A stretch of 64,000 bases of DNA from an uncultured Candidatus Saccharibacteria bacterium (GCA_964504715.1 CAZDEP010000004.1:8542-72541); one strand, 5' to 3'. Positions 3,440-33,222 are shown, counted from the stretch's first letter. Program-made: numbers and translations. The notes: generated by a model from the letters alone, not told the origin.

Positions 3440-3449
3440 ATCAAAATTT

Positions 3450-7001: not shown

Positions 7002-7210
7002 TTATTCAATGCCCTTATTGCAATACTCCGTTAATGAAAGGCATGGAGGAGCTGCGACATTTGGCCGTAAATTTCAGTTTTGAAACTAAATGCGCGCATT
7101 GCCAAAAAATGGTAACAGTCGAATTACTATTTGAGCGCATTGTTATTATCAATCAGGAACATAAAACAACCAAGCTCGGCCCGGACAGCATTAGAATCAT
7201 TAACAATTAA
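6998..7210 (+). CDS. small zinc-ribbon protein
   Basis: CPYC...CAHC paired CxxC motifs. Confidence 0.35.
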   Translation: MIIQCPYCNTPLMKGMEELRHLAVNFSFETKCAHCQKMVTVELLFERIVIINQEHKTTKLGPDSIRIINN

Positions 7211-7222: not shown

Positions 7223-7462
7223 ATGGTTCATATCGTATTGCCCTTTGATAAAAATAAAACCACGGATAAAGACAAAGCCTATAAAAAAATTATGTGGCTG
7301 TTCAAACAATACCAGCAGACGGAAGATAAAAGTAACTTGGCCGAGATTCAAGAAATAGTTAATCAGATTGATTCTCGTTTTTACATTGAGTTTCGGGTAA
7401 TCGGTGAACAACGCCCCTACCGAGTCATGTTTGTGCCGGACAGGATGAAAGGTATTAGTTAA
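7223..7462 (+). CDS. hypothetical phage protein
   Basis: ORF only. Confidence 0.3.
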   Translation: MVHIVLPFDKNKTTDKDKAYKKIMWLFKQYQQTEDKSNLAEIQEIVNQIDSRFYIEFRVIGEQRPYRVMFVPDRMKGIS

Positions 7463-7464: not shown

Positions 7465-7473
7465 TGGTATAAT
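7465..7473 (+). promoter_or_regulatory. extended -10 promoter (TGgTATAAT) upstream of the portal gene
   Basis: Exact TGnTATAAT; followed by a conserved leader. Confidence 0.5.
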
Positions 7474-7503
7474 ATTGGTAACAATTTAACTTTAAAGCTT
7501 ACG

Positions 7504-7546
7504 GGCTTATTGGTTTGCTCTCACGGGAGTAACCGGTAGGCCTTTT
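7504..7546 (+). terminator. leader hairpin plus U-tract between promoter and portal start (attenuator or antitermination target)
   Basis: ggcttattgg pairs with ccggtaggcc (G-U wobbles), followed by tttt; stem covaries with the copy at 9788-9840. Confidence 0.45.
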
Positions 7547-7552
7547 AAATTT

Positions 7553-9724
7553 ATGAAATTCTTAGACAGGTTAAAAGCGGCGGTTAAAATCACGCTGGGC
7601 GAATTGCCAAGAAACTATTATTTCGGAATGCTTGGAGGCGGCAACTCTTTAAAACGGGCTTCCGTTGAGGTTGATCCTTACGGCAATCTGGTCGGATGGG
7701 TATTCTTTGCGATCGATAAGGTGGCGCAGCGCGTGGGCGGCATAAATGTGGAGTTATTTCAGCTGGAGAAAGGCGGCAGCGTTGAGCAGGTGGACGATCA
7801 TGAATTGCTTAGCCTGATTTACCGCGCAAATCCGACCCAGACCAAATTCGACTTGTTTTACTTGACGACTTTGTATTTGAGAATTTGGGGATCGGCGCCG
7901 TGGTATTTGGAAATGAACGGCAAAAAGATAATTAATATTTGGCCGTTAAGACCAGACTTGCTTCGGGTTTTACAAAGCCAGGACGGCACGGTGACAGGTT
8001 ATGAATATCGGGTGGGTGTCATGCACGAAACCCTTAAGGCGGACGAAGTGATTAATATTCGCAAATCCAGCCCGCAAAATCCCATGATCGGCTTCAGCGT
8101 TTTACTGGCATCGGCATTGGAAATTGATGCCGATGTGGCAGCAGCGGTTTGGAATAGGCATGTGCTGGAAAACTCGGCGGAACCCGGAGGCGTGCTTACG
8201 ACCGAAGGAGGTTTAACCGATGAACAGTATAATCGTTTGGTGGAAAAATGGGAGGCAAGGTATGCCGGACCCACCAACGCAGGCAGGACGGCGATTTTGG
8301 AAGCGGGATTGAAGTATCAAAAAATTTCCCAAACCCAGCAGGAATTAGATTTCATTGAAAGCAGAAAGTTTAACCGGGACAGTATACTAACCATGCTTGG
8401 GGTGCCCAAAGCTTTGGTGATTGCCGATGACGTTAACCGCGCTAATGCCGAAGTCGCGGAGCGAGTATTTGCCAAAGAAACAATAGAACCTATCATGAGG
8501 TTAATTGTTGACCAGCTAAATGAATTTTTCGTCACAAGATTCGGCGATAATTTCTGGCTGGACTTTGAAAGCCCCGTCAGCCAAGACAGGGAGACTAAAC
8601 GTTTGGAGGCTCAAGCCGGAACTAACGTGTGGCAAACAGTCAATGAAACGAGGGCGGAATATAATTTGCCTCCGCTCGAAGGTGGCGATGAATTGTATAT
8701 GCCTTTATCGCTGGTGCCGCAGGTTGGCAGTGTTCCGGATCCGATTCAAGAACCAAAGCGGCATGTTATTTTAAAACAATCCGACACCCAATTCGTTAAC
8801 TCTAAACATAAAAAGATTAAGCAAGCCGTATTGGCCAGAAGCTACCCCAAACGAAAGTTCGTGGAAAATATCACGGAAAAAGTCGTGCAAAAGATTAGCG
8901 AAAAGCAAAAGGAAAGTAGCAATAAAATTAAGGTCAAGTTGAGGTATAAAGACGAGTTGGTAAATGTCTGGGATAATATTATTGAGGAACGTAAAATGTA
9001 TGTTAAAAAATTACCGCAACGAGCCGGTGCTTTTGAAAAGGTAATGCGTAAGTTTTTTGACGGCCAAGAAAATGAAGTTATAAAAAATTTTAATAAAGCC
9101 GGAGAGCCTAAAGGTTTGAACATTGAAGTGAAAGGCTGGATCGATAAGATACTGTTTAGGCGCAAAGATAACATTGAAGAGCTGGTAAAAGTAACGATGC
9201 CGTTGTATGAAGATAATATAAAGGAAGGCAGTCAGGATATTGCTATTCTCTTAGGCGTTGACTTGGTAGACATTATCGGCAATGCTCATGCCGTGGAATT
9301 CTTGAAAACCAAGCCCGTAAAATTTGCCGAAGCAGTCAACGATACCACATTGGAAGCTTTGAGGAATCAATTGAGCGAAGGGGTGGAGGCCGGTGAAAGC
9401 ATGGGAGAACTTGGTAATCGCATTGCCGCGGTGTTTGAGGAAGGTAGAAGCGTCAGGACGGAAACCATAGCCAGAACCGAAGTCGGCAGTGCCATGAACT
9501 TCGGCAGGAACGAGCAAATGAGCGAACAAGGCATAAAGCGCAAGCAGTGGCTGGCGATTTTCTCAAATACCCGCGAAACCCATGCCGAGGCTAACGGCCA
9601 AGTTGTGGATATCGGCGACAATTTCGTCGTAGGCGGCGAAGAATTGGCATACCCTCAAGACCCTGCGGGAAGCCCTGAAAATGTCATTAATTGTCAGTGT
9701 TCAGTCGTTCCTGTGATAGAATAA
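7553..9724 (+). CDS. portal protein fused to a head-morphogenesis (Mu F / SPP1 gp7-like) domain
   Basis: 723 aa; C-terminal ARTEVGSAMNFGRNEQ... region typical of Mu F-like minor head proteins; portal position after terminase. Confidence 0.65.
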   Translation: MKFLDRLKAAVKITLGELPRNYYFGMLGGGNSLKRASVEVDPYGNLVGWVFFAIDKVAQRVGGINVELFQLEKGGSVEQVDDHELLSLIYRANPTQTKFDLFYLTTLYLRIWGSAPWYLEMNGKKIINIWPLRPDLLRVLQSQDGTVTGYEYRVGVMHETLKADEVINIRKSSPQNPMIGFSVLLASALEIDADVAAAVWNRHVLENSAEPGGVLTTEGGLTDEQYNRLVEKWEARYAGPTNAGRTAILEAGLKYQKISQTQQELDFIESRKFNRDSILTMLGVPKALVIADDVNRANAEVAERVFAKETIEPIMRLIVDQLNEFFVTRFGDNFWLDFESPVSQDRETKRLEAQAGTNVWQTVNETRAEYNLPPLEGGDELYMPLSLVPQVGSVPDPIQEPKRHVILKQSDTQFVNSKHKKIKQAVLARSYPKRKFVENITEKVVQKISEKQKESSNKIKVKLRYKDELVNVWDNIIEERKMYVKKLPQRAGAFEKVMRKFFDGQENEVIKNFNKAGEPKGLNIEVKGWIDKILFRRKDNIEELVKVTMPLYEDNIKEGSQDIAILLGVDLVDIIGNAHAVEFLKTKPVKFAEAVNDTTLEALRNQLSEGVEAGESMGELGNRIAAVFEEGRSVRTETIARTEVGSAMNFGRNEQMSEQGIKRKQWLAIFSNTRETHAEANGQVVDIGDNFVVGGEELAYPQDPAGSPENVINCQCSVVPVIE

Positions 9725-9744
9725 TTTGCATTAGTTTTCAGGTG

Positions 9745-9753
9745 TGATATAAT
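9745..9753 (+). promoter_or_regulatory. extended -10 promoter (TGaTATAAT) upstream of the prohead protease
   Basis: Exact TGnTATAAT. Confidence 0.5.
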
Positions 9754-9787
9754 ATAAGCACAATTTAATTTTCCTCTCGAGCTTAAG

Positions 9788-9840
9788 GGCTCGGTAAAAC
9801 GATTCACACGGGAATCGGCTACCGAGCCTTTTTATTTTTT
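9788..9840 (+). terminator. leader hairpin (ggctcggta/taccgagcc) plus long U-tract
   Basis: 9-bp perfect stem enclosing cacgggaat, then tttttatttttt. Confidence 0.5.
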
Positions 9841-9852
9841 CTAAATAACTTT

Positions 9853-10743
9853 ATGGACAAAAAAGACAAAGTTTTAGTCAAGCAAATCAACCTTGAGGGT
9901 AAAGAAGTTAAACTGGAATTCAAGCATTTACCCATCAGCAATATTAAGATTCTGGATGCCAGCCTGGGCATTATTGAAGCCTATGTTTCCATATTCGGCA
10001 ATGTAGACAGTTACGGCGACGTGGTGGAAAAAGGTGCTTTTGCCGCAAGCATTGCCAAACATTTTCCCCGCTACCCCAAAGGAGTATGGGCTCATGATTG
10101 GAGCCAGCCGATCGCCAAGACTTTAGAGATTAAAGAGGATCAGCAAGGACTGTATGTTAAGGGTCAACTGCTTTTGGATATTCAAAAGGCCAAAGAGGCT
10201 TACATTTTAATCAAGGAAGGCGTGGTTACGGATTTCTCATTCGGTTATGAGGTGGACGAAGCGGTCATTGATGAATCTACGGGCGTGAGACTTCTTAAAA
10301 AACTCACCATTTACGAATGGAGTCCGGTGCTGGTGGGCGCTAACGACAGAGCTACTCTTTTGAGGGTTAAAAGTGACGGTCAAGAAACTGCTGCGGAAAA
10401 TACGGAAGAACTCTTGGAAGATGACGATGAAGACGATCCGGAAAAAGATAATAAAGAAACCGAGGAAAAAATCGGAAGAGTATTGAGCGAAGCCAATCGG
10501 AGCATGATTAAAACGGCCATGGATGAAATAGTGCTTTTGGTGACCGGACTGAACGATATTTTTAAAATGTTTGAGGCTCTTTACAGGGCGACAGAACAAC
10601 CTCCGGGTAAGGGAGGCAACACTGTGGTCGAGCAGCGTGATAGAAGCAAAGTCGTAAAAAACTTATGGCTTCGAGACGCACGACAGGCGGTAAAAGCTGG
10701 TAATCGGCTGATACTGCGTATAAAGAAAGAAATTATTAATTAA
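9853..10743 (+). CDS. prohead protease (HK97 family) with acidic scaffold-like C-terminal region
   Basis: SIFGNVDSYGDVVEKGAF resembles the HK97 protease signature; EDDDEDD tract. Confidence 0.6.
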   Translation: MDKKDKVLVKQINLEGKEVKLEFKHLPISNIKILDASLGIIEAYVSIFGNVDSYGDVVEKGAFAASIAKHFPRYPKGVWAHDWSQPIAKTLEIKEDQQGLYVKGQLLLDIQKAKEAYILIKEGVVTDFSFGYEVDEAVIDESTGVRLLKKLTIYEWSPVLVGANDRATLLRVKSDGQETAAENTEELLEDDDEDDPEKDNKETEEKIGRVLSEANRSMIKTAMDEIVLLVTGLNDIFKMFEALYRATEQPPGKGGNTVVEQRDRSKVVKNLWLRDARQAVKAGNRLILRIKKEIIN

Positions 10744-10759
10744 TAAGGAGATTTAGTTT

Positions 10760-11881
10760 ATGGAAAAAGTTAAAGAGAAAGAAGAACAAAAAGCCAAAGA
10801 AATGGTCTTGCAACTTGAGACCGGAGAGGAAATTAATCTTAAACAATTAATTTCCGAAGCCACTGTTGAAGGCATGAAAGATGCGGGTCTTCCTTTTGAC
10901 GAGACTGGAAAGTTCTCCTTGAGAGCCTTGCCCGTGGAAGTGCAGGATGAAGTCAGCCGCAAGCAAAAAGATTATGAAGCATCCGCAAACTTCATAAAGT
11001 CTTTAATTTTGCCCGTCAATTTGCACAAGGAATACGGAGTTAAGGCTATCGACACCTCTTCGGGGTCTTTCGGCACCGTGGTTCCCACCGAGCTTTACAA
11101 CGAAATTGTGGCTCAAACCCTGCGCTGGCAGGTTGTCCGCAAGTATGCGTTCGTATTCAGCCTGACCGGTAAAATTGACGTGCCTACCCAAGGCACCGGC
11201 GTTACCGGCTTTTGGGTTTCTGAAAACGCGCCCGTCACCGAAAGCAACCCGACCAGCGGTAAAATCTCGCTCGACGACAACGGCGTGGCGGCTTTGATTA
11301 AGGTTTCGTGGAAACTGCTTCGCACCTCTCCGCAAAATATCACCAAGTTCGTTTCTACCTTGGCTGCTCGAGCCATTACGGACAAGGAAGAAGCAGCTTT
11401 CATTGACGGTGACGGAGCCGGGAAACCTTTAGGGTTAAGGCAAACCGCAGGTATCGGTTCGATTGCTCAAGCCGGAGCAAACTTGACCTACGATGACCTC
11501 ATGGCTCTGTTCTTTTCCTTGCCCGCCACCTATCGCAGAAGCGCGCAGTTCGTCACTTCGTCCAAAGGCGCTCGTTTGATCCATGCTTTGAAGGACAGCC
11601 AGAACCGTCCGATCTTCCAGCCCAACATGCAGTTGGACCAGTTAATGGGTAAGCCCCTCTTGGAGAGCCAAGACATGCCCGCTAACTTGGGAGTTGGATT
11701 GAATGAAACCGAAATTTTCTTCGGTGACCTGTTCAACTACTGGATCAAGGATGGCTCGCAATTGGAAATGGCCACGCAGGATCAAATCGAGAACTTGCAG
11801 ACCAAGATTGTCATTTACAAATACGTGGATGGCAAGCTTACCTTCCCCGCGGCCTTCCAGAAATTGACGGCAGTCAAGTAA
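10760..11881 (+). CDS. major capsid protein (HK97 fold)
   Basis: 373 aa directly after the protease; N-terminal coiled scaffold-like delta region. Confidence 0.65.
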   Translation: MEKVKEKEEQKAKEMVLQLETGEEINLKQLISEATVEGMKDAGLPFDETGKFSLRALPVEVQDEVSRKQKDYEASANFIKSLILPVNLHKEYGVKAIDTSSGSFGTVVPTELYNEIVAQTLRWQVVRKYAFVFSLTGKIDVPTQGTGVTGFWVSENAPVTESNPTSGKISLDDNGVAALIKVSWKLLRTSPQNITKFVSTLAARAITDKEEAAFIDGDGAGKPLGLRQTAGIGSIAQAGANLTYDDLMALFFSLPATYRRSAQFVTSSKGARLIHALKDSQNRPIFQPNMQLDQLMGKPLLESQDMPANLGVGLNETEIFFGDLFNYWIKDGSQLEMATQDQIENLQTKIVIYKYVDGKLTFPAAFQKLTAVK

Positions 11882-11905
11882 CCTGAAATTTTTGTGGGTT
11901 TTCAC

Positions 11906-11932
11906 ACTTAGCCCCTTACTAAGGGGCTAAGT
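11906..11932 (+). terminator. perfect 12-bp stem hairpin after the capsid gene
   Basis: acttagcccctt-act-aaggggctaagt. Confidence 0.4.
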
Positions 11933-11965
11933 AGAAAGCTTAGAATTAATTTAGAAAGGATATAT

Positions 11966-12184
11966 ATGAAAGTTGAATTTTTAGTGGATACCGAGCCTTT
12001 CATCAAGGGTGACGTGATAGAAGTCGCTGACGATCGGGCGCAGGACTTGCTCAACCAGAATTTGGTTGTCGCAGTTAGCCAGGACATTAAAGTCAAAATC
12101 CAAGCCAGCGAACCTAAAGACCCTTGCGAGGACAAGGCCGTGGAAACCAAGGCGATCACTCCGGAAGACGTGGAAAATAAATAA
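11966..12184 (+). CDS. hypothetical small head-associated protein
   Basis: ORF with RBS-like context. Confidence 0.3.
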   Translation: MKVEFLVDTEPFIKGDVIEVADDRAQDLLNQNLVVAVSQDIKVKIQASEPKDPCEDKAVETKAITPEDVENK

Positions 12185-12197
12185 AACGTAAAAATCT

Positions 12198-12530
12198 ATG
12201 CCCAATGTGACCATGACCAATTCGGAAGGCGAACGGGTAGTTTACATCAACCAAAGCGTTCCAGTGGGCACATTGAATTCCGATGAACTGATAAATGCAG
12301 AACTATTAAGACTGGTGCAGGTCTTTTGGAGAACAAAAGGCCCCCAAACCACCGCCAGATTGCAGGGAACTCATTCTGAAACTCCTGTCGCCGCCGATTG
12401 GTTCGATTTACAAACATTAGCAGTCGGATTAAATTCTGTCACCATAGCTTGCGTTAAGCGTTTGCGGGTGCAGATGGTGCAGACTAATTCAGCTCAAAAT
12501 AACGAATTAAGCGTATTTGGCACCACCTAA
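12198..12530 (+). CDS. hypothetical phage protein
   Basis: ORF only. Confidence 0.3.
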   Translation: MPNVTMTNSEGERVVYINQSVPVGTLNSDELINAELLRLVQVFWRTKGPQTTARLQGTHSETPVAADWFDLQTLAVGLNSVTIACVKRLRVQMVQTNSAQNNELSVFGTT

Positions 12531-12532
12531 AT

Positions 12533-12913
12533 ATGGAATTAACTTCAAAGGCGCTCACTACGGTTGAGCAGGTAAAAATTCATATCAATATTCAGGGCGC
12601 GGCGCAAGATGAGGAAATCAAGTTATTGATTAACGGAGCTTCGGAGTTCATTGAGAAATACTGTAACCGCAAATTTGTCGATGACTTCGTGTTGCCCGGA
12701 GAGGAAGACCCTGAAGCCGATCCGCCCGCGGTGCGCGACTTGCCTTACGATGTTGAGCTGGCATGTATTAAGTTGGTCGGAGCATTCTTAAATGTTAAAG
12801 ATTCGGAAGGAGTGAAAAACGCATCGGCGGGCAATCTGAATATCACTTGGGCAACCGGGATTGACCAGAGCGTAAAGAATATTTTAGATCATTACAAAGT
12901 CTACAATGTTTAA
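12533..12913 (+). CDS. head-tail connector (gp6-like)
   Basis: Size and position. Confidence 0.4.
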   Translation: MELTSKALTTVEQVKIHINIQGAAQDEEIKLLINGASEFIEKYCNRKFVDDFVLPGEEDPEADPPAVRDLPYDVELACIKLVGAFLNVKDSEGVKNASAGNLNITWATGIDQSVKNILDHYKVYNV

Positions 12914-13211
12914 CCAAGTAACTTTTGAAATATGGAGATTAACCGTCGTATCCGGAGAAAAGAGAAGTTTTCAGAATACCGGCGAAAAGCTGTCCGGAGT
13001 TCTGGACCCTGTTGATGCGGAATTCGCTGCTTTGTCGGGCAGTTCATTCGGAAAATCTTTCAAGGTTTTTTCACAGGATAATAACAGCACGGTTAGGGAA
13101 AACGATCGTTTGGTTTTAGGCGGCGACACTTATGAAGTCAGAGGCTACCAAAAGTTTGATCATATTCCCAAGCATATTGAATTGATCGTGGAAAAAGTAA
13201 TTAAGCAATAA
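12906..13211 (+). CDS. head closure / adaptor protein
   Basis: Position; overlapping coupled ORFs. Confidence 0.3.
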   Translation: MFNQVTFEIWRLTVVSGEKRSFQNTGEKLSGVLDPVDAEFAALSGSSFGKSFKVFSQDNNSTVRENDRLVLGGDTYEVRGYQKFDHIPKHIELIVEKVIKQ

Positions 13212-13678
13212 TGAATGTCCAGATTCAAGAAGTCAGAGGAAAATTATTGGAAAAAATCCCGTTTGCCGGATATTACTTGCAGATTGGAATTCAACAAGCC
13301 TTAAAGGACGCTTCCGCGCTTATCTGGAGATTAACCATAGAAAAAGCCCCGACTTCCACCGGCACCTTAAAAAAAAGCATTAACCGTGATTTGTTTCCGA
13401 CTTACGCCAAGATTTACCCGACGGTAAAATATGGCATTTACGTTCACGAAGGCACGAGGCCGCATTGGCCTCCGCTCATAGAGCTTAAGCCGGGCGGATC
13501 CCTATATAGATGGGCGCAGAAGAAAGGCATTCCAGTGTTCTTGGTGGCCAGGGCAATTGCCCGAAAAGGCACTAAAGCCCAGCCGTGGATGGCCAACATT
13601 GCCGACAATCAGAAGGATGCGGTGGAACAGATTTTCTTAAATGAGCTGGCCAAGGTAGTTGAAAAATTAGGAGATTAA
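13211..13678 (+). CDS. tail completion protein (HK97 gp10-like)
   Basis: Position. Confidence 0.3.
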   Translation: MNVQIQEVRGKLLEKIPFAGYYLQIGIQQALKDASALIWRLTIEKAPTSTGTLKKSINRDLFPTYAKIYPTVKYGIYVHEGTRPHWPPLIELKPGGSLYRWAQKKGIPVFLVARAIARKGTKAQPWMANIADNQKDAVEQIFLNELAKVVEKLGD

Positions 13679-13680
13679 TT

Positions 13681-14091
13681 ATGTGGCAGGATATCAGACA
13701 AAAAATATTGGACGTGGTTACCGCAAACGGCAGCAAATTGCAATCCGTTTATAGAACCGACCGCAGCAAATTTGACGGCTACCCGGCCGCGATTATCGCT
13801 CCATCCGAACACGAGTCGGATTACGAAGATACTAAAACCGATGAGCTAACTTTTGTTTTTACCGTTACCGTTTTCCAAAGCATTGCCGACGTGGGAGAGG
13901 ATCAAGCAGATATTATTTTGGAAAAAGTTGTCGATGAATTAATCACCTTATTTCTAGACCGCAGAGTTTTAGGGAATACCGTGGAATGGGTGTTACCGGT
14001 AAACAGCCGCTGGGGATATCAAGACAGGCCGGACGGACAGGTTCGGGTGGCAGAATTAAAACTTAGATGCAGAAAGTATATAGGCAATTAA
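13681..14091 (+). CDS. tail terminator-like protein
   Basis: Position. Confidence 0.3.
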   Translation: MWQDIRQKILDVVTANGSKLQSVYRTDRSKFDGYPAAIIAPSEHESDYEDTKTDELTFVFTVTVFQSIADVGEDQADIILEKVVDELITLFLDRRVLGNTVEWVLPVNSRWGYQDRPDGQVRVAELKLRCRKYIGN

Positions 14092-14263
14092 CATTAGACT
14101 CATGAAGAATAAAAATACCAACGACAATTTACCCGACTTGGAATTTAACTTCCCTCTTGAAGGGGTGGTTATTAAAGCCAAAACTTTGGAAGAAGCCCAA
14201 AGCGAATTAGCCAGGCGCAAAAGTCAAAGGTCTGAACCAATTAACGACGAAGGAGAATAATTT

Positions 14264-15256
14264 ATGTTTTTACGAGGCGAAGATATTAATATCGGTTTAG
14301 GGGTGGAAACCGTCCGAGGCACGGGCGTGGCTCCAGCCGTATTCATTCCCGGCAAAACTCCGACGGGAGTGAGCGTTGATGTTGATAAGACTTTGATCAA
14401 AGAAACAAGGGCTAGTAAGGTTTCCAGCCAAGGCAGCGAGATTACCCGCATAGCGGCTGGTGGAAATTTGGAGTTTAACTTAAGAGTCAGCAGCATCGGC
14501 TATTTGTTAAAGAGTTTGCTTGGGGCGGTCAGCAGCGCGGTGGCCGGTGGCGAATCCGCCGTTTATAATCACACTTTCAGCATTTTACCCAGCAATCCGC
14601 AGCACCCTTCCCTGACTTTGGCGTTAAGCAAACCCGGCATTCAGGATTATGAATATCCTCTGGCTTTGGTCAAAAGCCTTGAAATCAGGACACCGGTTAA
14701 TGATCTTATAAACGCCACGGCGGCTTTTCTGGCGCAAAAGGAAAATACGCACGCGGCCTACACTCCGGCGTTTGTCGCCAGTGATTATTACTTCCGGCAT
14801 CAAGATGTCGTGATCAAGCTTGCCGACAACGTGGCCGGACTTGCGGCGGCCAGCCCGATCAAAGTAAAGAATTTCAAATTCGGCATAGATAATAAAGGAA
14901 GGTTTAATCAGAACGTTTCGGAATTAAACCCGAGCGACGTCATTGCCGATATATTCAGCCTTGAAGGCGAAATGCAGCTCGACTTGGTTGATACTTCCCT
15001 GCACGATATTTTTACCGCCGGATCATACAAAGCGTTGCAGTTAAAAATGATTCGCAGCGATATCACAATCGGCACTGCCAGCAATCCGGCCGTAACGATA
15101 ACTTTGCCGAAAGTCAGCTTTGAAAGTTTCAATGAAAACAGAAAGATCGACGATATTGTCGAGCAGACCATTAAATTTATGGCTCACTACTCCGCTTCCG
15201 ACGCCATGGCCATTCAAGCGGTGGTTACAAATGAAAAAGCTAATTATAATTCCTAA
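14264..15256 (+). CDS. major tail protein
   Basis: Precedes the G/GT chaperone pair and the tape measure. Confidence 0.5.
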   Translation: MFLRGEDINIGLGVETVRGTGVAPAVFIPGKTPTGVSVDVDKTLIKETRASKVSSQGSEITRIAAGGNLEFNLRVSSIGYLLKSLLGAVSSAVAGGESAVYNHTFSILPSNPQHPSLTLALSKPGIQDYEYPLALVKSLEIRTPVNDLINATAAFLAQKENTHAAYTPAFVASDYYFRHQDVVIKLADNVAGLAAASPIKVKNFKFGIDNKGRFNQNVSELNPSDVIADIFSLEGEMQLDLVDTSLHDIFTAGSYKALQLKMIRSDITIGTASNPAVTITLPKVSFESFNENRKIDDIVEQTIKFMAHYSASDAMAIQAVVTNEKANYNS

Positions 15257-15260
15257 AAAT

Positions 15261-15641
15261 ATGGAACGAGAAAATATTACAATTGAAACGCCGGTCGATA
15301 AGCACGTTGTGGTGCTAAAAAGTTTTATTACCGGCCGCGAACAAAGAATTTTGACCAACATTTTCGTATCGGGAATGAAAGACGTCAAAGTTTCGGCAAT
15401 AAACCAAGACTTAAATGTTCCGGAGGTTAACACCGCCTTAATCGATAAGGCCGAGGATGAAGCGTGGCGTTTGGTAATCGTATCCATTGACGGACACAAA
15501 GACGGCGATGTCATTGATGGCAAGCCTTATTCCCTAATCGATGCGGTATTGGATATGAAATTAAAGGATTACGAGGCCGTATCCAATAAGGTAAAGGAAG
15601 TCACGCAAGACAAACATTTTGAATCTCAAAAAAAAATTTAA
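15261..15641 (+). CDS. tail assembly chaperone G; start revised from ORF-track 15120 to the ATG at 15261
   Basis: Acidic protein ending 6 codons after an A AAA AAA slippery heptamer (15629-15635). Confidence 0.55.
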   Translation: MERENITIETPVDKHVVVLKSFITGREQRILTNIFVSGMKDVKVSAINQDLNVPEVNTALIDKAEDEAWRLVIVSIDGHKDGDVIDGKPYSLIDAVLDMKLKDYEAVSNKVKEVTQDKHFESQKKI

Positions 15642-15844
15642 TCGTTGAATATCGCACCTTCTTAAGAAATGGCGGAGGTAAGTTGCCGGAACAGTTAATC
15701 ATGGCAATGGTTTGCGAAAAAATGGGCTGGACATTGGAGCAATACCTGTGCCAGCCCGTTTGGTTTATAAAGACGTTGCTGCTTAAAATGAATTTAGACG
15801 CAGAGCATTCGGAAGAATTAAATAAACAATATGGCTCAAAGTAA
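15261..15844 (+). CDS. tail assembly chaperone GT fusion made by -1 programmed frameshift at 15629-15635
   Basis: -1 frame stays open for 69 codons (NLIVEYRTFLRNGGGK...NKQYGSK) and ends at 15844, overlapping the tape measure start. Confidence 0.5.
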
Positions 15845-17534
15845 TTTGGAAATCGTAATAAAAGCCCAGGACGAGGCATCGGATAAGCTTAAAGGTATTG
15901 CCGAAAGCGCAAAAGGTATGGGCATAGCGTTTACGGCCGTGGGAGCGGTAATAACCGGGTCTTTGGCTTTTGCCATTAAGGCGGCCAGCGATGCCCAGAT
16001 TCAAATGCAGGGCGTTGATACCGTGCTTAATGCCATGAAAAGCAGCGCGCAGGATGCGGCCGCCAAGGTGCAGGTAAACGGCAATGAAATGAAATTGAGC
16101 GCGCTTAAGGCGCAGGAGTTGCAGCTCAAAATAGCGGAAATTGAAAAGGGATATAAAAAGAACAAGGACGCTTTGGATGACAACACCGATTCGATGGACA
16201 AAAATGCCGTCAAACTGGCCGAATATAAAATACAGCTCGAGGCTTTAAACGCCAAACAAGAACAACAGCAAAATCTGTTAAAGCTCGCCACGGGCAACTT
16301 TGATATATATAGAGAGACTATCGTTAAGGCGGGCAAGGCGGCTTTACAGTTGGGCTTTGACGATGAGGAGGCCAGTCTAAGTATTACCAAATTATTCCAG
16401 CGCACCGGCGATTTAAATCAAGCCATTAAACTGAATAGTCTGGCAATGGATTTGGCTCGCAGCAAGCACATGGACTTGTCTACCGCCAGCAATTTGGTAG
16501 GCATGGTTTTAAGCGGCAACTCACGCGTGTTAAAACAATACGGCATTGATATCAAAGATTCGGCCACGGCCGGAGAGGCTTTGCAAGAACTCCAAGTCAG
16601 ACTGAAGGGATCGGTGCAGGATTACGCACAGACTTTTGCGGGTCAAAGCGCGGTGCTCAAGGAAAAACTTTCCAACATAGTTGAGGAAATCGGGGGCAAG
16701 CTTTTGCCCGTATTAACCCAGTTGCTTGAACGCATCGCACCCATTGTCGACAAAATTGTTGACTGGATGGGCAAGCATGAAAAACTTACCACTGTTCTAA
16801 TCATCGGAGTCGGGGCTTTGGGTTTGTTGCTTGCGGTTTTGGGACCATTGCTGATTGCACTTCCTGCCATAGTCGCGGGCATTCAAGCGGTCGGAGCGGC
16901 CATGATGTTTTTGGCAGCTAATCCCATTATCTTAATCATTGGCGCCATCATCGCCTTAATTGCCGTGATTGTTTTAATGATCACCCACTGGCAACAGACC
17001 AAGGTTATAGCTTTGCAAGTTTGGAATGAAATTAAGGAAGTCGTGGGCGGCGCCATGGAAACCGTGAAGAATTACATCGACGCGGGCATGACGTATATTC
17101 AAACCGCCTGGATGGAAGTTTGGACGGCGATTAAGGATTACGTTATCGGCATTTGGCAGGAAATTGTCGATAAAATTACCGGTTTTGTAAACGGAATAAT
17201 GGACAAAGTTAACAGCGTCAAAAACGCTATTAGTAGTGTTGCCAGCTCGGTTGGCGGGGCTATTAGTAGTGCGGGTAATAAGATTGGCAATGCGTTTGGC
17301 GGGGGCAAAGCTTCTGGAGGTTCGGTATTCGGCGGTTCCACCTATCTGGTGGGAGAACAGGGACCCGAATTATTCACGCCCTCCTCTTCCGGAATGATAG
17401 TTCCAAATCATGCTTTGGGCGGTGCGGTCTTTAATATCAATTTTTCCGGAAATACTTTTATGGGAGATCGAGACGTGGCAAGAAAGATTGGAAAGGAGTT
17501 GGTGAATTACTTAAAATTAAATGTTAGGGTTTAA
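15831..17534 (+). CDS. tail tape measure protein
   Basis: 567 aa; coiled-coil N-terminus, hydrophobic central segment, Gly-rich C-terminus. Confidence 0.75.
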   Translation: MAQSNLEIVIKAQDEASDKLKGIAESAKGMGIAFTAVGAVITGSLAFAIKAASDAQIQMQGVDTVLNAMKSSAQDAAAKVQVNGNEMKLSALKAQELQLKIAEIEKGYKKNKDALDDNTDSMDKNAVKLAEYKIQLEALNAKQEQQQNLLKLATGNFDIYRETIVKAGKAALQLGFDDEEASLSITKLFQRTGDLNQAIKLNSLAMDLARSKHMDLSTASNLVGMVLSGNSRVLKQYGIDIKDSATAGEALQELQVRLKGSVQDYAQTFAGQSAVLKEKLSNIVEEIGGKLLPVLTQLLERIAPIVDKIVDWMGKHEKLTTVLIIGVGALGLLLAVLGPLLIALPAIVAGIQAVGAAMMFLAANPIILIIGAIIALIAVIVLMITHWQQTKVIALQVWNEIKEVVGGAMETVKNYIDAGMTYIQTAWMEVWTAIKDYVIGIWQEIVDKITGFVNGIMDKVNSVKNAISSVASSVGGAISSAGNKIGNAFGGGKASGGSVFGGSTYLVGEQGPELFTPSSSGMIVPNHALGGAVFNINFSGNTFMGDRDVARKIGKELVNYLKLNVRV

Positions 17535-19042
17535 TGATAACCGTTGAAATAAAAAAATTGGGAGAGGTCGTATTTACCGACCGCACTACATCGGTAATAT
17601 GGGACAGCTTGAAGATCAGGCAGGCTTTGACCAAAGAGGTGGACTCCTGCAATTTCAACATGGAAAAATACGGGAGTAAAACATTTAAACCGGACGAAGA
17701 AGACGAGATCGTAATAAAGCAAGATGGAATAAAAATCTTTGCCGGTTTTCTTGTCAGGGTCAGGGAAACTTTGACTCCCAACTTAGTGCTTTCATACGAA
17801 TGTGAAGCCAAAGATTATACCCATCTGCTAAATCGCAAATTGGTGAATAAAACTTACAGCAACCAAACCGAACTGCAAATCATTACCGATATTAAGAATA
17901 CTTTCTCCGCAGCCGGTATCACCGTTGCTAATGTTGACGGAGCCAATGTCATTGAGAACATTACTTTTAATAATGTGGATCCGTCGGCGGCTTTGCAAAA
18001 ACTGGCGGAAATTTTCAACAAAGATTGGTATATCGATTACGACAAGGATATCCATTACTTTTCCAAAGAAGCTAACGTCGCGCCGTTTAGTTTGAGCGAT
18101 GCCAACGGAAATTACATATTGGAAAGTTTGGAAATTACCACAGATACGACGCAGATTAAAAACAGCGTATTTGTGGAAGGAGGGCAGGAATTGAGCGGCA
18201 CGGTCTTTACCGAAAAATTCGTGGCCGATGGCACGCAGCATACCTTTTCCGTCAGCTATCAATATGCCAACCTTATATTGAAACTCAACGGCGTGACGAA
18301 AACCGTCGGCATCGACGGCACCGATGATTTTACCGGCAAGGACGCGCTATATAATTTTGAGAATTTTTCTTTAAGATTTAATCCTTTATCTCCCCCGGCC
18401 AATGGCACGGTAATTGAGTTTGGCGGCAATTTCTATTTTCCCATTAAGACTCTTGTCAGGGAAAGCACGTCAATTACCAAGTATGGCGAAAAGCAATTCC
18501 AAATTATTGACAGCAATATTAAAAATCGCGACGTAGCCAAGAAAAGGGCGCAGGCGGAAATCTATGCCTACGCGGCAAATCTTAACGAAGGAGGTTTTGA
18601 AACTTATACGTCGGGTCTTCGCGCAGGTCAACGTCTTTTAATTCAGTCGGACATCAGGTCTTTGAGTGATTATTACTTAATCAATAATTTGGAAGCCTCA
18701 ATGTTTAATCCGAGCAAAATTATTTGGAAAGCGACATTGGTGAGCGTGAAAACTTTTGACGTCATGGACTTGTTGGCCAAGATTGTCGACAAAAGTAACT
18801 TGCAGACCGGCACGGATGAAATAGTTAAGACCGCGGAGATTGTATTGCGAAGCGTGCAGGTGAGCAGGAATATCCAAATTCAAACCCCGCAGTCAAAAGC
18901 AAGGATAGTCCAACTGACCCGGCTTTTTTTAAGCTATATTGATAACCCGCCCGTCTGGGTGGCCGGACCCTATAATCCCACTTCCCTAAGCGACCGCAAA
19001 AGACCGGCTTTTGCCGATCGGGGTTGTCTTTTAGGCAGTTAA
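17534..19042 (+). CDS. distal tail / tail component protein
   Basis: Position after the tape measure. Confidence 0.45.
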   Translation: MITVEIKKLGEVVFTDRTTSVIWDSLKIRQALTKEVDSCNFNMEKYGSKTFKPDEEDEIVIKQDGIKIFAGFLVRVRETLTPNLVLSYECEAKDYTHLLNRKLVNKTYSNQTELQIITDIKNTFSAAGITVANVDGANVIENITFNNVDPSAALQKLAEIFNKDWYIDYDKDIHYFSKEANVAPFSLSDANGNYILESLEITTDTTQIKNSVFVEGGQELSGTVFTEKFVADGTQHTFSVSYQYANLILKLNGVTKTVGIDGTDDFTGKDALYNFENFSLRFNPLSPPANGTVIEFGGNFYFPIKTLVRESTSITKYGEKQFQIIDSNIKNRDVAKKRAQAEIYAYAANLNEGGFETYTSGLRAGQRLLIQSDIRSLSDYYLINNLEASMFNPSKIIWKATLVSVKTFDVMDLLAKIVDKSNLQTGTDEIVKTAEIVLRSVQVSRNIQIQTPQSKARIVQLTRLFLSYIDNPPVWVAGPYNPTSLSDRKRPAFADRGCLLGS

Positions 19043-19044
19043 TT

Positions 19045-19053
19045 TGCTATAAT
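19045..19053 (+). promoter_or_regulatory. extended -10 promoter (TGcTATAAT) with conserved leader and U-tract (19068-19140)
   Basis: Exact TGnTATAAT; leader shares aactttaa / tacgggctt / cgggagta / U-run with the 7482-7546 and 9761-9840 copies. Confidence 0.45.
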
Positions 19054-19142
19054 ATAGATAATAAATCAATAACTTTAAGGATTTACGGATCCTATTTCCA
19101 AAAGCATACGGGCTTTTCGGGAGTAGGGTCTTTTTTGTTTTT

Positions 19143-19706
19143 ATGGACATAAAAGCTGAAGAAAAATTCATTAAACGTATTGGCTGGATTACCAAGTATA
19201 ACTGGGAAAAGCTAAAACTCATTCCTAATTGGCGTGACTATTTTGACGTGAGTAAAATCTCCCCGCAAAAAAGGTTTGAAATATTTGGAGGCATTCCCGG
19301 ATTGATTGAAGGGCAGCAATTGTTTGAAAACCTAACTCCGACTGTTGGCTTTCAGCAACTTTGCAAAGCCATGAGTGGCAATATTTCCACGATTGCGGAG
19401 ATCGGAGTTAATTATCACGCCATGGGCACGGGCACGAATTCTCCGGCTGCCGGTGATATTCAATTACAAACCGAGAGCACCAGAAAACTTTTAGCTTCAA
19501 AGACTTATTCAAACAACAAAGCTTTTTATACCGCTTTCTATGCAGCTACCGAGGCTGTGGGAACTTTCACTGAAATCGGTTTGTTCATAAACGGATCGGC
19601 TACTGTCAACTCCGGCGTGATATGGGACAGGTCGCTGCTTTCGATTATTAAATCCAACACACAGACCTTAACAATTGATTACGAGGATACGTTCATTAAC
19701 GGATAA
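19143..19706 (+). CDS. tail protein (hypothetical)
   Basis: ORF between tail genes. Confidence 0.3.
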   Translation: MDIKAEEKFIKRIGWITKYNWEKLKLIPNWRDYFDVSKISPQKRFEIFGGIPGLIEGQQLFENLTPTVGFQQLCKAMSGNISTIAEIGVNYHAMGTGTNSPAAGDIQLQTESTRKLLASKTYSNNKAFYTAFYAATEAVGTFTEIGLFINGSATVNSGVIWDRSLLSIIKSNTQTLTIDYEDTFING

Positions 19707-19709
19707 TCT

Positions 19710-21095: not shown

Positions 21096-21250
21096 ATCTA
21101 TGCTCAAAAGAATTCAACTGCCAAGCGGCGCAATCGAATATGTCGATACAAACCCTAACCTGATTAAAACTACAGGCAAAAAAGCCAAAGGTCTGATTAA
21201 AATGATGACATCTAAGATCGTCAAGACTTTAAAATTAAGTAAATAACTTT

Positions 21251-21622
21251 ATGACCATTAACGAAATAGTAAATTACGCTGGATCAATCGGCATCTTTGT
21301 TTTTGCCATTGGTTATTTGGTAGCGCAATACAAAAAAGGTGGCAATGAAGGCAATGTGGAAGTCATCAAGCTTTTACGCGAGCAGATGGAAGGCTTAAAA
21401 CTGGTGGTTTACGAAAACCAACAGGAAGTTAAACGGCTTTCGGATGAAATTATAAAGCTGAAGACTTTGGGAGAAGAAAAAGATAAAAAGATTAAAGAGC
21501 TTACGGAGCTTTTACAGAACAAAGATCCACGACTGCAAACTTTCATGAAAGATACTACGGATATTTTAACTGAGATCAAAAACTTTATGCATAATATTAA
21601 CCAAAATTTTGAAAGGAAATAA
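21251..21622 (+). CDS. membrane-anchored coiled-coil protein (lysis accessory or holin-like)
   Basis: Single N-terminal TM helix, then coiled-coil. Confidence 0.3.
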   Translation: MTINEIVNYAGSIGIFVFAIGYLVAQYKKGGNEGNVEVIKLLREQMEGLKLVVYENQQEVKRLSDEIIKLKTLGEEKDKKIKELTELLQNKDPRLQTFMKDTTDILTEIKNFMHNINQNFERK

Positions 21623-21624
21623 CT

Positions 21625-22632: not shown

Positions 22633-22746
22633 TAGGAAGATTGGATAATGAAAATTATCTTTAAAATAATATTAATTTTAACAATTATTGTCTTACTGTT
22701 TGCTTTCATCACCAAGCAAGCGGGAGGCTATTAGAAAGGAATCTTT

Positions 22747-22977: not shown

Positions 22978-22980
22978 ACT

Positions 22981-33218: not shown

Positions 33219-33222
33219 TTCT

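What the first reader, a model, noticed from the sequence alone, without database searches (positions are those of the whole stretch)
7465..19140. Three copies of a promoter-leader-terminator module before the portal, protease and tail genes: likely antitermination-controlled late transcription
An exact extended -10 (TGnTATAAT) sits at 7465, 9745 and 19045. Each is followed within 7-13 nt by a conserved leader: caatttaa(c/t)ttt, agctta.gggc / tacgggctt, cacggga(g/a)t / cgggagta. Each leader ends in a hairpin immediately followed by a U-tract just before the gene start. The stems covary between copies (ggcttattgg/ccggtaggcc versus ggctcggta/taccgagcc), which argues for a selected RNA structure. 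A terminator placed between a strong promoter and structural genes is the hallmark of Q-like or put-like antitermination.
Basis: seen in the sequence. Interest (0 to 1): 0.6.

Follow-up and report, generated by a model that had tools for sequence, protein, structure and literature searches.

The report
Phage late-gene RNA terminator switch
Three late-gene operons of this prophage each begin with a strong promoter followed by a conserved RNA that can fold as a transcription stop signal or as a competing small hairpin, which looks like a previously undescribed on/off switch, probably flipped by a small phage zinc-finger protein related to phage Mu Com.

Summary
Exact TGnTATAAT elements at 7465, 9745 and 19045 are each followed by a roughly 60-nt leader that folds into a long hairpin plus U-tract (z = -5.2 to -6.2), just before the portal, protease/capsid and distal-tail operons. 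A covariance model finds only these three copies in the 64-kb window. It finds 44 distinct copies in about 20 related phages (portal 34-95% identical), at the same three syntenic places. It finds none in about 150 loci with more distant portals.

The anatomy is richer than reported. Each leader has two small hairpins, A and B, capped by a conserved Y-A-N-G tetraloop (A and G invariant). B is the apex of the terminator. The 3' arm of A is the 5' base of the terminator, so A and the terminator are mutually exclusive, and both folds covary strongly.

This is a protein-dependent attenuator, not a Q- or put-type system, and it matches no Rfam family.

The best candidate regulator is the 70-aa zinc-ribbon protein at 6998-7210. 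It is conserved upstream of module 1 and absent from the two module-less relatives. It is Com-like (hhalign probability 90.6%), and Com's known target is a very similar C-G-closed hexaloop hairpin. The regulator assignment and the switching itself are inferred, not shown.

The parts
7465..7473 (+). Module 1 extended -10 promoter (TGGTATAAT)
   Evidence: An extended -10 lies 11-23 nt upstream of the RNA in nearly all related modules: 22 of 40 distinct module-plus-upstream contexts match exactly, and 9 more match 7 of 8 specified bases.
7495..7508 (+). Module 1 hairpin A (antiterminator): AAGC[UUACGG]GCUU, tetraloop core UACG
   Evidence: Its 3' arm (7505-7508) is also the 5' base of the terminator. 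Covariation of A was measured on an alignment that was not fitted to A.
7517..7530 (+). Module 1 hairpin B (apex of the terminator): GCUC[UCACGG]GAGU, core CACG
7503..7546 (+). Module 1 intrinsic terminator: stem 7503-7543, U-tract 7543-7546. The portal ATG is at 7553.
   Evidence: -23.5 kcal/mol, z = -5.17; 34.2 bits.
9745..9753 (+). Module 2 extended -10 promoter (TGATATAAT), with TTTGCA as the -35
9778..9793 (+). Module 2 hairpin A: CGAGC[UUAAGG]GCUCG, core UAAG
   Evidence: A alone -7.4 kcal/mol.
9800..9817 (+). Module 2 hairpin B: CGAUUC[ACACGG]GAAUCG, core CACG
9785..9840 (+). Module 2 intrinsic terminator: stem 9785-9831, core 9787-9828, U-tract 9829-9840. The protease ATG is at 9853.
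   Evidence: -27.6 kcal/mol, z = -5.42; 37.6 bits.
19045..19053 (+). Module 3 extended -10 promoter (TGCTATAAT), with TTGTCT as the -35
19078..19093 (+). Module 3 hairpin A: AGGAU[UUACGG]AUCCU, core UACG
19100..19117 (+). Module 3 hairpin B: AAAAGC[AUACGG]GCUUUU, core UACG
19087..19142 (+). Module 3 intrinsic terminator: stem 19087-19131, U-tract 19131-19142. The ATG is at 19143.
   Evidence: -26.7 kcal/mol, z = -6.21; 40.8 bits.
6998..7210 (+). Candidate trans-acting factor: a 70-aa CxxC...CxxC zinc-ribbon protein, Com-like. It is the second-to-last gene of the operon that ends at module 1.
   Evidence: it is restricted to the module clade and absent from the module-less L081 and L120. (Com similarity). 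This is an inferred role, not a shown one.
7223..7462 (+). Conserved 79-aa protein of unknown function between the Zn-ribbon gene and module 1. It is a weaker candidate for the regulator.
   Evidence: it is present in the module-less L081 and L120 too; no family match.
7553..9724 (+). Operon 1 controlled by module 1: portal + MuF fusion
9853..19042 (+). Operon 2 controlled by module 2: S78 protease, major capsid protein, connector proteins, tail tube, chaperone, tape measure, and a 502-aa tail protein
19143..25086 (+). Operon 3 controlled by module 3: distal tail / virion structural genes

Best explanation
Each module is a transcription attenuator placed between a constitutive host-type (extended -10) promoter and a late structural operon.

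The nascent leader first forms hairpin A, a 4-6 bp stem that is usually closed by C-G and capped by Y-A-M-G. It then forms hairpin B, capped by Y-A-H-G. When the 3' arm of the terminator emerges, it displaces hairpin A, because the 3' arm of A is the 5' base of the terminator. This completes a hairpin of about -25 kcal/mol that abuts a U-tract, and RNA polymerase terminates after about 60 nt. This is the default OFF state.

A trans-acting factor that recognises the conserved loops clamps hairpin A, and probably B as well, as a dimer or as two copies. The lower 5-9 bp of the terminator then cannot form. What remains of the stem is separated from the U-tract, and polymerase reads into the portal, protease/capsid and tail operons. 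This is the ON state.

The most likely factor is the 70-aa Com-like zinc-ribbon protein at 6998-7210. It is encoded at the end of the upstream replication/terminase operon, so its accumulation would time the early-to-late switch.

Shown: the promoters; the three copies; the two alternative folds and their covariation; the invariant loop bases; the conservation at syntenic positions; and the co-occurrence and Com-likeness of the zinc-ribbon gene.

Inferred: that termination actually occurs; that it is relieved; and that the zinc-ribbon protein is the agent.

My confidence that this is a factor-dependent attenuator is about 0.7. My confidence that the zinc-ribbon protein is the factor is about 0.45.
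For: 1. All three leaders fold as a terminator hairpin plus U-tract, far better than shuffled sequence.

2. Covariance model R1 was built on the terminator and B only. It finds only the 3 copies in the window with filters off. It finds 46 matches (44 distinct) in 22 sources, all on the gene strand and all at the same three syntenic sites. It finds nothing below E = 0.1 in about 150 loci (about 2 Mb) whose portals are more distant.

3. Terminator + B: 86.8% of cells are paired and the covariation score is 0.82, against 0.24 for shuffles (0 of 500 reach it) and 0.17-0.18 for registers slid by one column.

4. Hairpin A was not part of the model. Even so, 81% of its cells are paired. For A and B counted together the covariation score is 0.70, against 0.24 shuffled and 0.18 slid. 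Thirty-eight of 44 modules, and 22 of 23 non-seed modules, have at least 4 contiguous pairs around the loop.

5. Column 13 (G in 35 modules, A in 9) covaries with both of its partners. In hairpin A it pairs with column 8 (UG 26, CG 9, UA 8). In the terminator it pairs with column 70 (GC 27, AU 9, GU 8). This is direct evidence that both folds are selected.

6. The loop A and G are invariant: 44 of 44 in hairpin A and 42 of 42 in hairpin B, while every stem position varies.

7. The terminator fold is 9-10 kcal/mol more stable than the best fold with A enforced. In the A-form, 5-9 nt separate the residual stem from the U-tract.

8. The promoter is conserved with the RNA. In L201 four genes are inserted after the portal gene, and the module stays with the protease gene.

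9. Evidence for the zinc-ribbon protein as the factor:
- An HMM of the family hits 24 of 196 loci, essentially the module clade.
- The gene is missing between TerL and p80 in the two close relatives that lack modules, L081 (also checked with genetic code 25) and L120. The neighbouring p80 gene is retained in both.
- hhalign against Mu Com gives probability 90.6% and E = 1.3e-6.
- JGI names 3 homologues 'phage FluMu protein Com'.
- PHROG 6417 'translational regulator' hits 5 of 15 members.
- Pfam Zn_ribbon_Com hits 5 of 19 members.

10. Mu Com binds a short hairpin, AUGC[CUGCGA]GCAU. It has a C-G closing pair and a hexaloop, lies next to an inhibitory hairpin, and Com binding melts that inhibitory hairpin (PMC6483171; the site was verified in Mu). 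The hairpins here are C[YYAMGR]G, for example GAGC[UCACGA]GCUC, which is the same format.
Against: - There is no transcript or binding data. Termination and read-through are both inferred from sequence.
- The link between the zinc-ribbon gene and the modules rests on only two discriminating genomes. It is also imperfect: the L116/L204 and L002 lineages keep the zinc-ribbon gene but lack canonical modules. They carry a different leader, which in L116/L204 ends in a terminator-like hairpin.
- The window protein itself does not reach any Pfam or NCBIfam Com threshold.
- The AlphaFold model (pLDDT 74) has no significant PDB neighbour.
- Zinc ribbons are short, and profile matches between them are easily inflated.
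- YNMG-type tetraloops are intrinsically stable, so part of the loop conservation could reflect folding rather than recognition.
- A host factor cannot be excluded.
Confidence: 0.6

Rival explanations
1. Q-like or put-like processive antitermination. A factor, or the RNA itself, modifies RNA polymerase near the promoter so that it ignores the adjacent terminator and all downstream ones.
For: A constitutive-looking promoter followed at once by a terminator recalls lambda pR'-tR'. Two adjacent hairpins recall HK022 put RNA (background knowledge). The modules sit in front of late operons.
Against: - There are three independent copies, each with its own promoter and terminator, instead of one loading site.
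- Hairpin A physically overlaps the terminator, and the shared bases covary with both partners. Q and put have no need for this.
- No DNA element between or after the promoter hexamers is conserved across loci. Only the RNA loops are conserved.
- No Q-family or other antiterminator hit was found among the scanned ORFs.
Confidence: 0.12
2. Unregulated elements. The hairpin plus U-tract simply ends the upstream operon and/or stabilises the 5' end of the new transcript. In this reading the Y-A-M-G loops are conserved only because YNMG tetraloops fold fast and are stable, and no trans-acting factor is involved.
For: UACG, CACG, UAAG and CAAG fit the stable YNMG class (background knowledge). The terminator fold is strongly favoured. 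The genes after the modules lack Shine-Dalgarno sequences and start in A/U-rich leaders.
Against: - The terminator lies downstream of the promoter, so an unconditional terminator would abort the promoter's own transcripts.
- Stability alone would also allow UUCG or GNRA loops. Yet the A at loop position 2 and the G at position 4 are invariant in 86 of 86 loops, and UAUG/CAUG, which are not YNMG, occur in B.
- Hairpin A, with the same loop and a conserved overlap with the terminator, has no role in a plain terminator.
Confidence: 0.12
3. Translational control in the manner of Mu Com/mom. The hairpin blocks ribosome access and the factor melts it. On this reading the U-tract is incidental.
For: The candidate factor resembles Com, which is a translational activator (PMC6483171). 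The hairpin ends only 6-21 nt before the start codons.
Against: The start codon and the A/U-rich stretch before it lie outside the hairpin in all modules. A U-run (median 5.5 nt) that immediately abuts the stem is conserved in all 44 modules, and that is the defining feature of an intrinsic terminator.
Confidence: 0.08
4. A riboswitch or RNA-RNA sensor, for example one like guanidine-II (mini-ykkC), in which two hairpin loops dock on each other around a ligand.
For: There are two small hairpins whose loops contain ACGG/ACGA, which superficially resembles the ACGR loops of mini-ykkC.
Against: - No Rfam family, including mini-ykkC, scores even at E <= 10 on any module.
- Covariation of the closing pair puts the loop register at Y-A-N-G, not A-C-G-R.
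- The third loop base is C, A or U, which would break a C-G loop-loop pair.
- The structure has no ligand pocket, and phage structural genes have no plausible metabolite link.
Confidence: 0.04

Closest known systems
Phage Mu Com / mom mRNA (a zinc-finger protein that binds a short hexaloop hairpin and melts the adjacent inhibitory hairpin)
   Same: - A small (62-70 aa) phage CxxC...CxxC zinc-ribbon protein, with profile similarity to the protein here.
- The target is a 4-5 bp hairpin with a C-G closing pair and a 6-nt loop of the form Y-Y-N-C-G-R. Mu has AUGC[CUGCGA]GCAU. Here the hairpins are, for example, GAGC[UCACGA]GCUC (PMC6483171).
- The bound hairpin competes with, or destabilises, a neighbouring inhibitory hairpin.
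- Both control late functions.
   Different: - Com relieves a translation-inhibition hairpin that contains the start codon. Here the inhibitory hairpin is an intrinsic terminator and the start codon lies outside it.
- There are two recognition hairpins per site and three sites per genome, instead of one.
- Loop position 3 is an invariant A here, not G, and the Com GAG motif is met in only about 20% of loops.
- The protein does not reach the Pfam Com threshold, and it carries a 7-residue insertion and a longer beta-rich C-terminal part.
ANTAR regulators (EutV, NasR, AmiR) and their dual-hexaloop RNA targets
   Same: Two small tandem hairpins with conserved loop bases; one of them is mutually exclusive with an intrinsic terminator; antitermination comes from a protein clamping the hairpins (PMC3369931).
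   Different: - ANTAR loops have A at position 1 and G at position 4. Here they are at positions 3 and 5 (A-N-G).
- In ANTAR targets the second hairpin overlaps the base of the terminator and the first lies upstream. Here the first hairpin overlaps the base and the second is the apex of the terminator.
- No ANTAR-domain protein was found among the scanned prophage ORFs.
Lambda Q / pR'-tR' late switch
   Same: A constitutive late promoter whose transcripts stop at a nearby terminator until a phage factor, made earlier in infection, allows read-through into the structural genes.
   Different: Q binds DNA and a sigma-paused polymerase and acts processively from one site. Here there are three local RNA switches with an antiterminator hairpin, and no Q homologue was detected.
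BglG/SacY/LicT RAT antiterminators
   Same: A protein stabilises an RNA hairpin that overlaps the 5' half of a terminator.
   Different: RAT is a single imperfect hairpin of about 29 nt, bound by a CAT-domain dimer that is regulated by the PTS. Neither the RNA nor the protein resembles what is found here.

Membership tests
Intrinsic (Rho-independent) terminator | Stable G+C-containing hairpin immediately followed by a U-run | tested here: met
   Across the 44 distinct modules the median free energy of the MFE fold of the module region is -25.9 kcal/mol, and the U-run abutting the stem has a median of 5.5 nt (minimum 3).
Intrinsic (Rho-independent) terminator | Actually releases RNA polymerase | not testable with these tools
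   Needs in vitro transcription or 3'-end mapping.
ANTAR target RNA | Two tandem hairpins, each with at least 3 bp and a hexaloop | tested here: met
ANTAR target RNA | A at loop position 1 and G at loop position 4 in both loops (PMC3369931) | tested here: not met
   The invariant A is at position 3 and the invariant G at position 5 of the six-base loop.
ANTAR target RNA | ANTAR-domain protein partner | tested here: not met
   No PF03861 hit among the prophage ORFs scanned. The host genome outside the window was not searched.
Guanidine-II riboswitch (mini-ykkC) | Two hairpins with ACGR tetraloops; match to the Rfam model | tested here: not met
   No hit at E <= 10. The loop register is Y-A-N-G, with C, A or U at the third position.
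Lambda Q-type antitermination | Q-family protein encoded by the phage | tested here: not met
   No such Pfam or PHROG hit among the ORFs from 146 to 33867 that were scanned. Several small ORFs were not scanned.
Lambda Q-type antitermination | Q-binding DNA element and a sigma-dependent promoter-proximal pause | not testable with these tools
   By eye, no DNA motif is conserved across loci other than the promoter itself. The pause would need experiment.
HK022 put RNA | Two-hairpin RNA that acts on polymerase in cis without any protein and suppresses distant terminators | not testable with these tools
   The overlap of hairpin A with the terminator is not a put feature. Function would need experiment.
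Mu Com family (Pfam PF10122 Zn_ribbon_Com) | Small protein with a CxxC...CxxC zinc ribbon at the N-terminus | tested here: met
   (the four Cys are invariant in 19 sequences).
Mu Com family (Pfam PF10122 Zn_ribbon_Com) | Significant match to the family profile | tested here: inconclusive
   The window protein has no PF10122 hit at E <= 1. Five of 19 family members hit, best E = 2e-9, and the per-member table was not returned, so I cannot say which members these are. hhalign of the clade profile against Mu Com gives probability 90.6% over 33 columns. PHROG 'translational regulator' hits 5 of 15 members, and gpCom hits 2 of 15. JGI names 3 homologues Com.
Mu Com family (Pfam PF10122 Zn_ribbon_Com) | RNA target: hexaloop hairpin with a C-G closing pair and the motif CC(N)2-3GAG (PMC6483171) | tested here: inconclusive
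   The C-G closing pair is present in 38 of 44 modules. The loop is Y-Y-A-M-G-R, and the last base is A (giving GAG with the stem G) in 9 of 44 A loops and 10 of 42 B loops. The format is the same but the motif is not identical.

The most novel reading that the evidence does not exclude
A Com-family zinc-ribbon protein has been recruited as a hairpin-specific transcription antiterminator. It would clamp two Y-A-N-G-capped hairpins in each of three leader RNAs, and so form the whole early-to-late switch of a clade of siphovirus-like (pro)phages. Where a host can be assigned, it is Candidate Phyla Radiation / Patescibacteria (Moraniibacteriota L082). This would be a new class of cis-regulatory RNA, absent from Rfam, and a new mode of phage late-gene control. 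It would also be the first regulatory RNA-protein pair defined for phages of these bacteria.
Probability: 0.35. Interest if true: 0.75.

Novelty: new variant of a known kind. Interest (0 to 1): 0.62.

Why it matters
Late-gene timing is understood for only a few model phages: Q, N, phage sigma factors, and Ogr/C-type activators. Nothing is known for phages of the ultra-small CPR/Patescibacteria.

This finding gives a compact RNA element of about 60 nt that is supported by covariation. Its bistable design is clear, it occurs at three sites per genome, and there is a specific, testable protein partner.

If confirmed, it would add a new family of structured regulatory RNA. It would extend the Com zinc-finger family from translational activation to transcription antitermination. 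It would also give annotators a marker for late operons in poorly understood phages.

The small hairpin-protein pair could also serve as an orthogonal antitermination part for synthetic biology.

Tried and rejected
- Rfam. The gathering-threshold scan of the whole window found only a tRNA. Permissive scans of all three modules and of the L112 modules found only chance sub-threshold hits.
- Single-protein scans for portal relatives in viral and genome collections found nothing. Profile-based scans were needed.
- An exact-pattern scan of IMG/VR for the commonest hairpin A plus terminator arm returned only the contig already held. A first attempt had too few specified bases.
- My first reading of the loops as NNA[CA]GG hexaloops was refined to a Y-A-N-G tetraloop with a covarying closing pair.
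- Guanidine-II and ANTAR membership were considered and rejected on loop register and positions.
- The 79-aa protein was considered as the regulator and ranked lower, because it persists in module-less relatives and matches nothing.
- The AlphaFold model of the zinc-ribbon protein and the Foldseek search against PDB were uninformative.
- Cluster look-ups gave no organism names for the window's own host.
- Literature searches found no description of this element.
- A DNA-binding-site ('stoperator'-like) reading was rejected, because the stems covary while only the loop bases are fixed.

Full report
**1. What is there**

The left half of the window is a siphovirus-like prophage, with all genes on the + strand.
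- An AAA_24 protein, a DnaD-like protein, methyltransferases and a ParB-methylase (146-5176).
- A TerS-like gene and TerL (5180-7001).
- Two small genes (6998-7210 and 7223-7462).
- Portal+MuF (7553-9724), S78 protease (9853-10743) and major capsid protein (10760-11881).
- Connector and tail genes, a tape measure (15831-17534) and a 502-aa tail protein (17534-19042).
- More virion and tail genes up to about 25086.

In the 95%-identical relative L192, host pilin genes lie immediately left of the AAA_24 gene. The window therefore contains essentially the whole left arm of the element.

**2. Check of the observation**

TGnTATAAT is present at 7465, 9745 and 19045. The window has eight such nonamers, all on the + strand, against 2.6 expected. 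The other five precede non-structural or host genes and are not followed by a leader hairpin. The extended -10 is therefore the ordinary promoter type of this organism. The AATTTAA-like string that follows it is also generic.

What is special to the three sites is the RNA. Each leader folds into a long hairpin abutting a U-run, with energies of -23.5, -27.6 and -26.7 kcal/mol and z-scores of -5.2, -5.4 and -6.2.

**3. Anatomy**

Each leader contains two small hairpins with the same kind of loop.

| Module | Hairpin A | Hairpin B |
|---|---|---|
| 1 | AAGC[UUACGG]GCUU (7495-7508) | GCUC[UCACGG]GAGU (7517-7530) |
| 2 | CGAGC[UUAAGG]GCUCG (9778-9793) | CGAUUC[ACACGG]GAAUCG (9800-9817) |
| 3 | AGGAU[UUACGG]AUCCU (19078-19093) | AAAAGC[AUACGG]GCUUUU (19100-19117) |

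Hairpin B is the apex of the terminator hairpin. The 3' arm of hairpin A is the first part of the 5' arm of the terminator, so A and the full terminator cannot exist together.

With A enforced, the best fold is 9-10 kcal/mol less stable than the terminator fold. The stem that remains then ends 5-9 nt before the U-run, so it would no longer act as an intrinsic terminator.

**4. Conservation and covariation**

Portal homologues gave about 200 loci from viral, metagenomic and genome collections and from Logan/NCBI/ENA contigs.

I built a covariance model on a MAFFT alignment of 21 hand-picked modules. Only the terminator and hairpin B were given as structure.
- With filters off it finds just the three modules in the window. 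The next best hit scores 14.7 bits at E = 0.1.
- It finds 46 matches (44 distinct sequences, 23 of them not seeds) in 22 sources. All are on the gene strand.
- Hits occur only in phages whose portal is at least about 34% identical to the window's. About 150 loci (roughly 2 Mb) with more distant portals give nothing below E = 0.1, which serves as a specificity control.

Where enough sequence is available, the copies sit at the same three places: before the portal gene, before the protease gene, and after the ~500-aa tail protein. This holds in the window and in L192-L195, L112/L202, L124 and L082. In L201 four genes are inserted after the portal gene, and the module has stayed with the protease gene.

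Genome hits place relatives of these phages in Candidate Phyla Radiation bacteria (Moraniibacteriota, Gracilibacteria). Of these two, only the Moraniibacteriota contig L082 carries modules. The window's own host could not be named.

Pair counts on the model-derived alignment:
- Terminator + B: 86.8% of cells are paired. All 14 pairs show changes on both sides. The covariation score is 0.82, against 0.24 for shuffles (0 of 500 reach it) and 0.17-0.18 for registers slid by one column.
- Hairpin A, which was not modelled: 81% of cells are paired. For A and B counted together the score is 0.70, against 0.24 shuffled and 0.18 slid.
- Thirty-eight of 44 modules (22 of 23 non-seed) have at least 4 contiguous pairs around the loop.

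The base shared by the two folds is the most telling. Column 13 (G in 35 modules, A in 9) covaries with its partner in hairpin A (UG 26, CG 9, UA 8). It also covaries with its partner in the terminator (GC 27, AU 9, GU 8). Both folds are therefore under selection.

Against this background of changing stems, the loops are fixed.
- Hairpin A loop: Y-Y-A-M-G-R.
- Hairpin B loop: N-Y-A-H-G-R.
- The A and the G are invariant in 44 of 44 and 42 of 42 loops.
- The first and last loop bases covary (U-G, C-G, U-A). The core is therefore a Y-A-N-G tetraloop: UACG, CACG, UAAG, CAAG, and in B also UAUG and CAUG.

An extended -10 lies 11-23 nt upstream in almost all modules. Of 40 distinct contexts, 22 match exactly and 9 more match 7 of 8 specified bases. 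The genes that follow start in A/U-rich leaders without a Shine-Dalgarno sequence.

**5. What it is**

This is a promoter-proximal attenuator with a competing antiterminator hairpin. Termination is the default state, because the terminator fold is much the more stable and it is followed by a U-run.

An unconditional terminator placed directly after a consensus promoter would be pointless. The loops of A and B are also conserved far beyond what stability requires. A trans-acting factor that recognises the loops and holds hairpin A closed is therefore the most economical explanation.

The element matches no Rfam family, even at E <= 10. I found no description of it in the literature held.

**6. 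Candidate factor**

Between TerL and module 1, all module-bearing relatives with enough upstream sequence carry two small genes: a ~70-aa CxxC...CxxC protein and an ~80-110-aa protein.

HMMs of both families hit only this phage clade (24 and 23 of 196 loci). Two close relatives have no module at all: L081 (Gracilibacteria, also read with genetic code 25) and L120. Both lack the zinc-ribbon gene but keep the second gene. That favours the zinc-ribbon protein, although only two genomes discriminate.

In L085 a divergent zinc-ribbon gene sits directly upstream of the module. L122 has a divergent zinc-ribbon protein, and its modules have hairpin A and the terminator but no B-type loop.

The same HMM also picked up clearly Com-like proteins in two distant phages, L091 and L031. 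In L091 the gene lies directly upstream of a leader that folds as a hairpin plus U-run before the protease gene (z = -5.3). The L031 leader has a U-run, but its fold is not better than shuffled sequence (z = -0.46).

Similarity to phage Mu Com:
- hhalign of the clade profile against Mu Com gives probability 90.6% and E = 1.3e-6 over the zinc ribbon.
- PHROG 6417 'translational regulator' hits 5 of 15 members, and gpCom hits 2 of 15.
- Pfam Zn_ribbon_Com hits 5 of 19 members.
- JGI's own name for three homologues is 'phage FluMu protein Com'.
- The window protein itself does not reach a curated threshold, so membership is inconclusive.

The functional parallel is close. Com binds a short hairpin with a C-G closing pair and a six-base loop, AUGC[CUGCGA]GCAU, next to the inhibitory hairpin of mom mRNA, and binding melts that inhibitory hairpin (PMC6483171; site verified in Mu). 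The hairpins here have the same format, C[YYAMGR]G, for example GAGC[UCACGA]GCUC. The main difference is an invariant A at loop position 3.

The gene lies at the end of the long upstream operon that stops at module 1. This would make its product a natural timer for the late switch. That last point is inference.

**7. Caveats**

- The L116/L204 and L002/L123 lineages keep the zinc-ribbon gene but have no canonical module. They carry a different leader that starts with CAUCAGC. In L116/L204 it ends in a terminator-like hairpin whose apex is a UCCG loop. The L002 leader does not fold better than shuffled sequence. This may be a change of specificity, or it may be evidence against the pairing.
- The structure model of the protein (pLDDT 74, all-beta) has no significant PDB neighbour.
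- No expression data exist.

**8. Comparison with known systems**

Functionally this resembles the lambda pR'-tR'/Q arrangement: a constitutive promoter whose transcripts stop early until a phage factor appears. Mechanistically it resembles ANTAR or BglG-type hairpin competition and Com-type hairpin recognition.
- It is not an ANTAR target. ANTAR loops have A at position 1 and G at position 4 (PMC3369931), whereas here they are at positions 3 and 5. The geometry also differs, and no ANTAR protein was found.
- It is not guanidine-II. The loop register is different, the third base varies, and the Rfam model does not hit.
- Nothing supports a Q or put mechanism.

**9. Verdict**

The general idea of antitermination-controlled late transcription is supported, but the specific Q/put attribution is not. 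The element is best described as a new family of leader RNA switch, a new variant of protein-dependent attenuation, with a plausible Com-like zinc-ribbon partner.

Noticed in passing
window 15620-15835: A run of seven A (15630-15636) sits just before the stop of the 126-aa tail chaperone gene (15261-15641). The -1 frame stays open for about 65 codons up to the tape-measure start at 15831. This is the classic G/GT-type programmed -1 frameshift of tail assembly chaperones.
   Followed up: partly
window 25112-33867: A fourth exact TGCTATAAT (25112) precedes a Schlafen AlbA_2/HATPase_c_4 gene (25152-26615) with no leader hairpin. It is followed by a complete MmeI-type restriction-modification gene (26963-29671), a 992-aa protein of unknown function and an SRAP peptidase. 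This looks like a defence or moron island at the right end of the prophage, expressed without the attenuator.
   Followed up: partly
window 11909-11932: A perfect 10-bp hairpin (CUUAGCCCCUU ACUA AGGGGCUAAG) lies right after the major capsid gene, with no U-run. It may be an mRNA 3' stabiliser or a partial terminator that sets the capsid:tail expression ratio.
   Followed up: no
L116 / L204 12860-12925 and L002 ~1950-2010: These relatives keep the zinc-ribbon gene but lack the Y-A-N-G modules. They share a different leader that begins with CAUCAGC after the promoter. In L116/L204 it ends in a terminator whose apex is GCUG[UCCG]CAGC. This may be a switch of RNA specificity.
   Followed up: partly
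L091 2304-2560 and L031 12016-12300: In two distantly related phages a clearly Com-like gene (for example MKEIRCPHCQKLLFKGNSANVEIKCPGCKRLV...) lies directly upstream of a leader before the protease gene. The L091 leader folds as a hairpin plus U-run (z = -5.3). The L031 leader has a U-run but folds no better than shuffled sequence. Com-like protein plus leader pairs may be more widespread in phage head operons.
   Followed up: partly
L122 3948-3996 and 6283-6330: In this variant of the module, hairpin A (UACG/CACG loop) overlaps a 11-12 bp terminator whose apex has no Y-A-N-G loop. The zinc-ribbon protein of this phage is also divergent: its first CxxC is replaced by C-T-C.
   Followed up: partly
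window 7547-7552, 9841-9852, 19137-19142: The three genes that follow the modules have no Shine-Dalgarno sequence and start in A/U-rich leaders. Internal genes of the operons do have one (for example GAAGGAG before 14264). The same holds in related phages.
   Followed up: no
L201 12200-14866: Four genes, one with a BppU_N domain, are inserted between the portal and protease genes. The module has stayed with the protease gene, which shows that the promoter-leader unit belongs to the downstream operon.
   Followed up: yes
L192 1-2600 versus window 44367-46311: In the 95%-identical relative, the 169-aa pilin gene and its ~470-aa neighbour lie immediately left of the prophage on the opposite strand. 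In the window they lie about 10 kb right of it. This points to a different insertion site or a local inversion.
   Followed up: no
L203 2292-2344: A weak covariance-model hit (16.5 bits, E = 0.016) lies inside the early region of another module-bearing phage. It was not examined.
   Followed up: no
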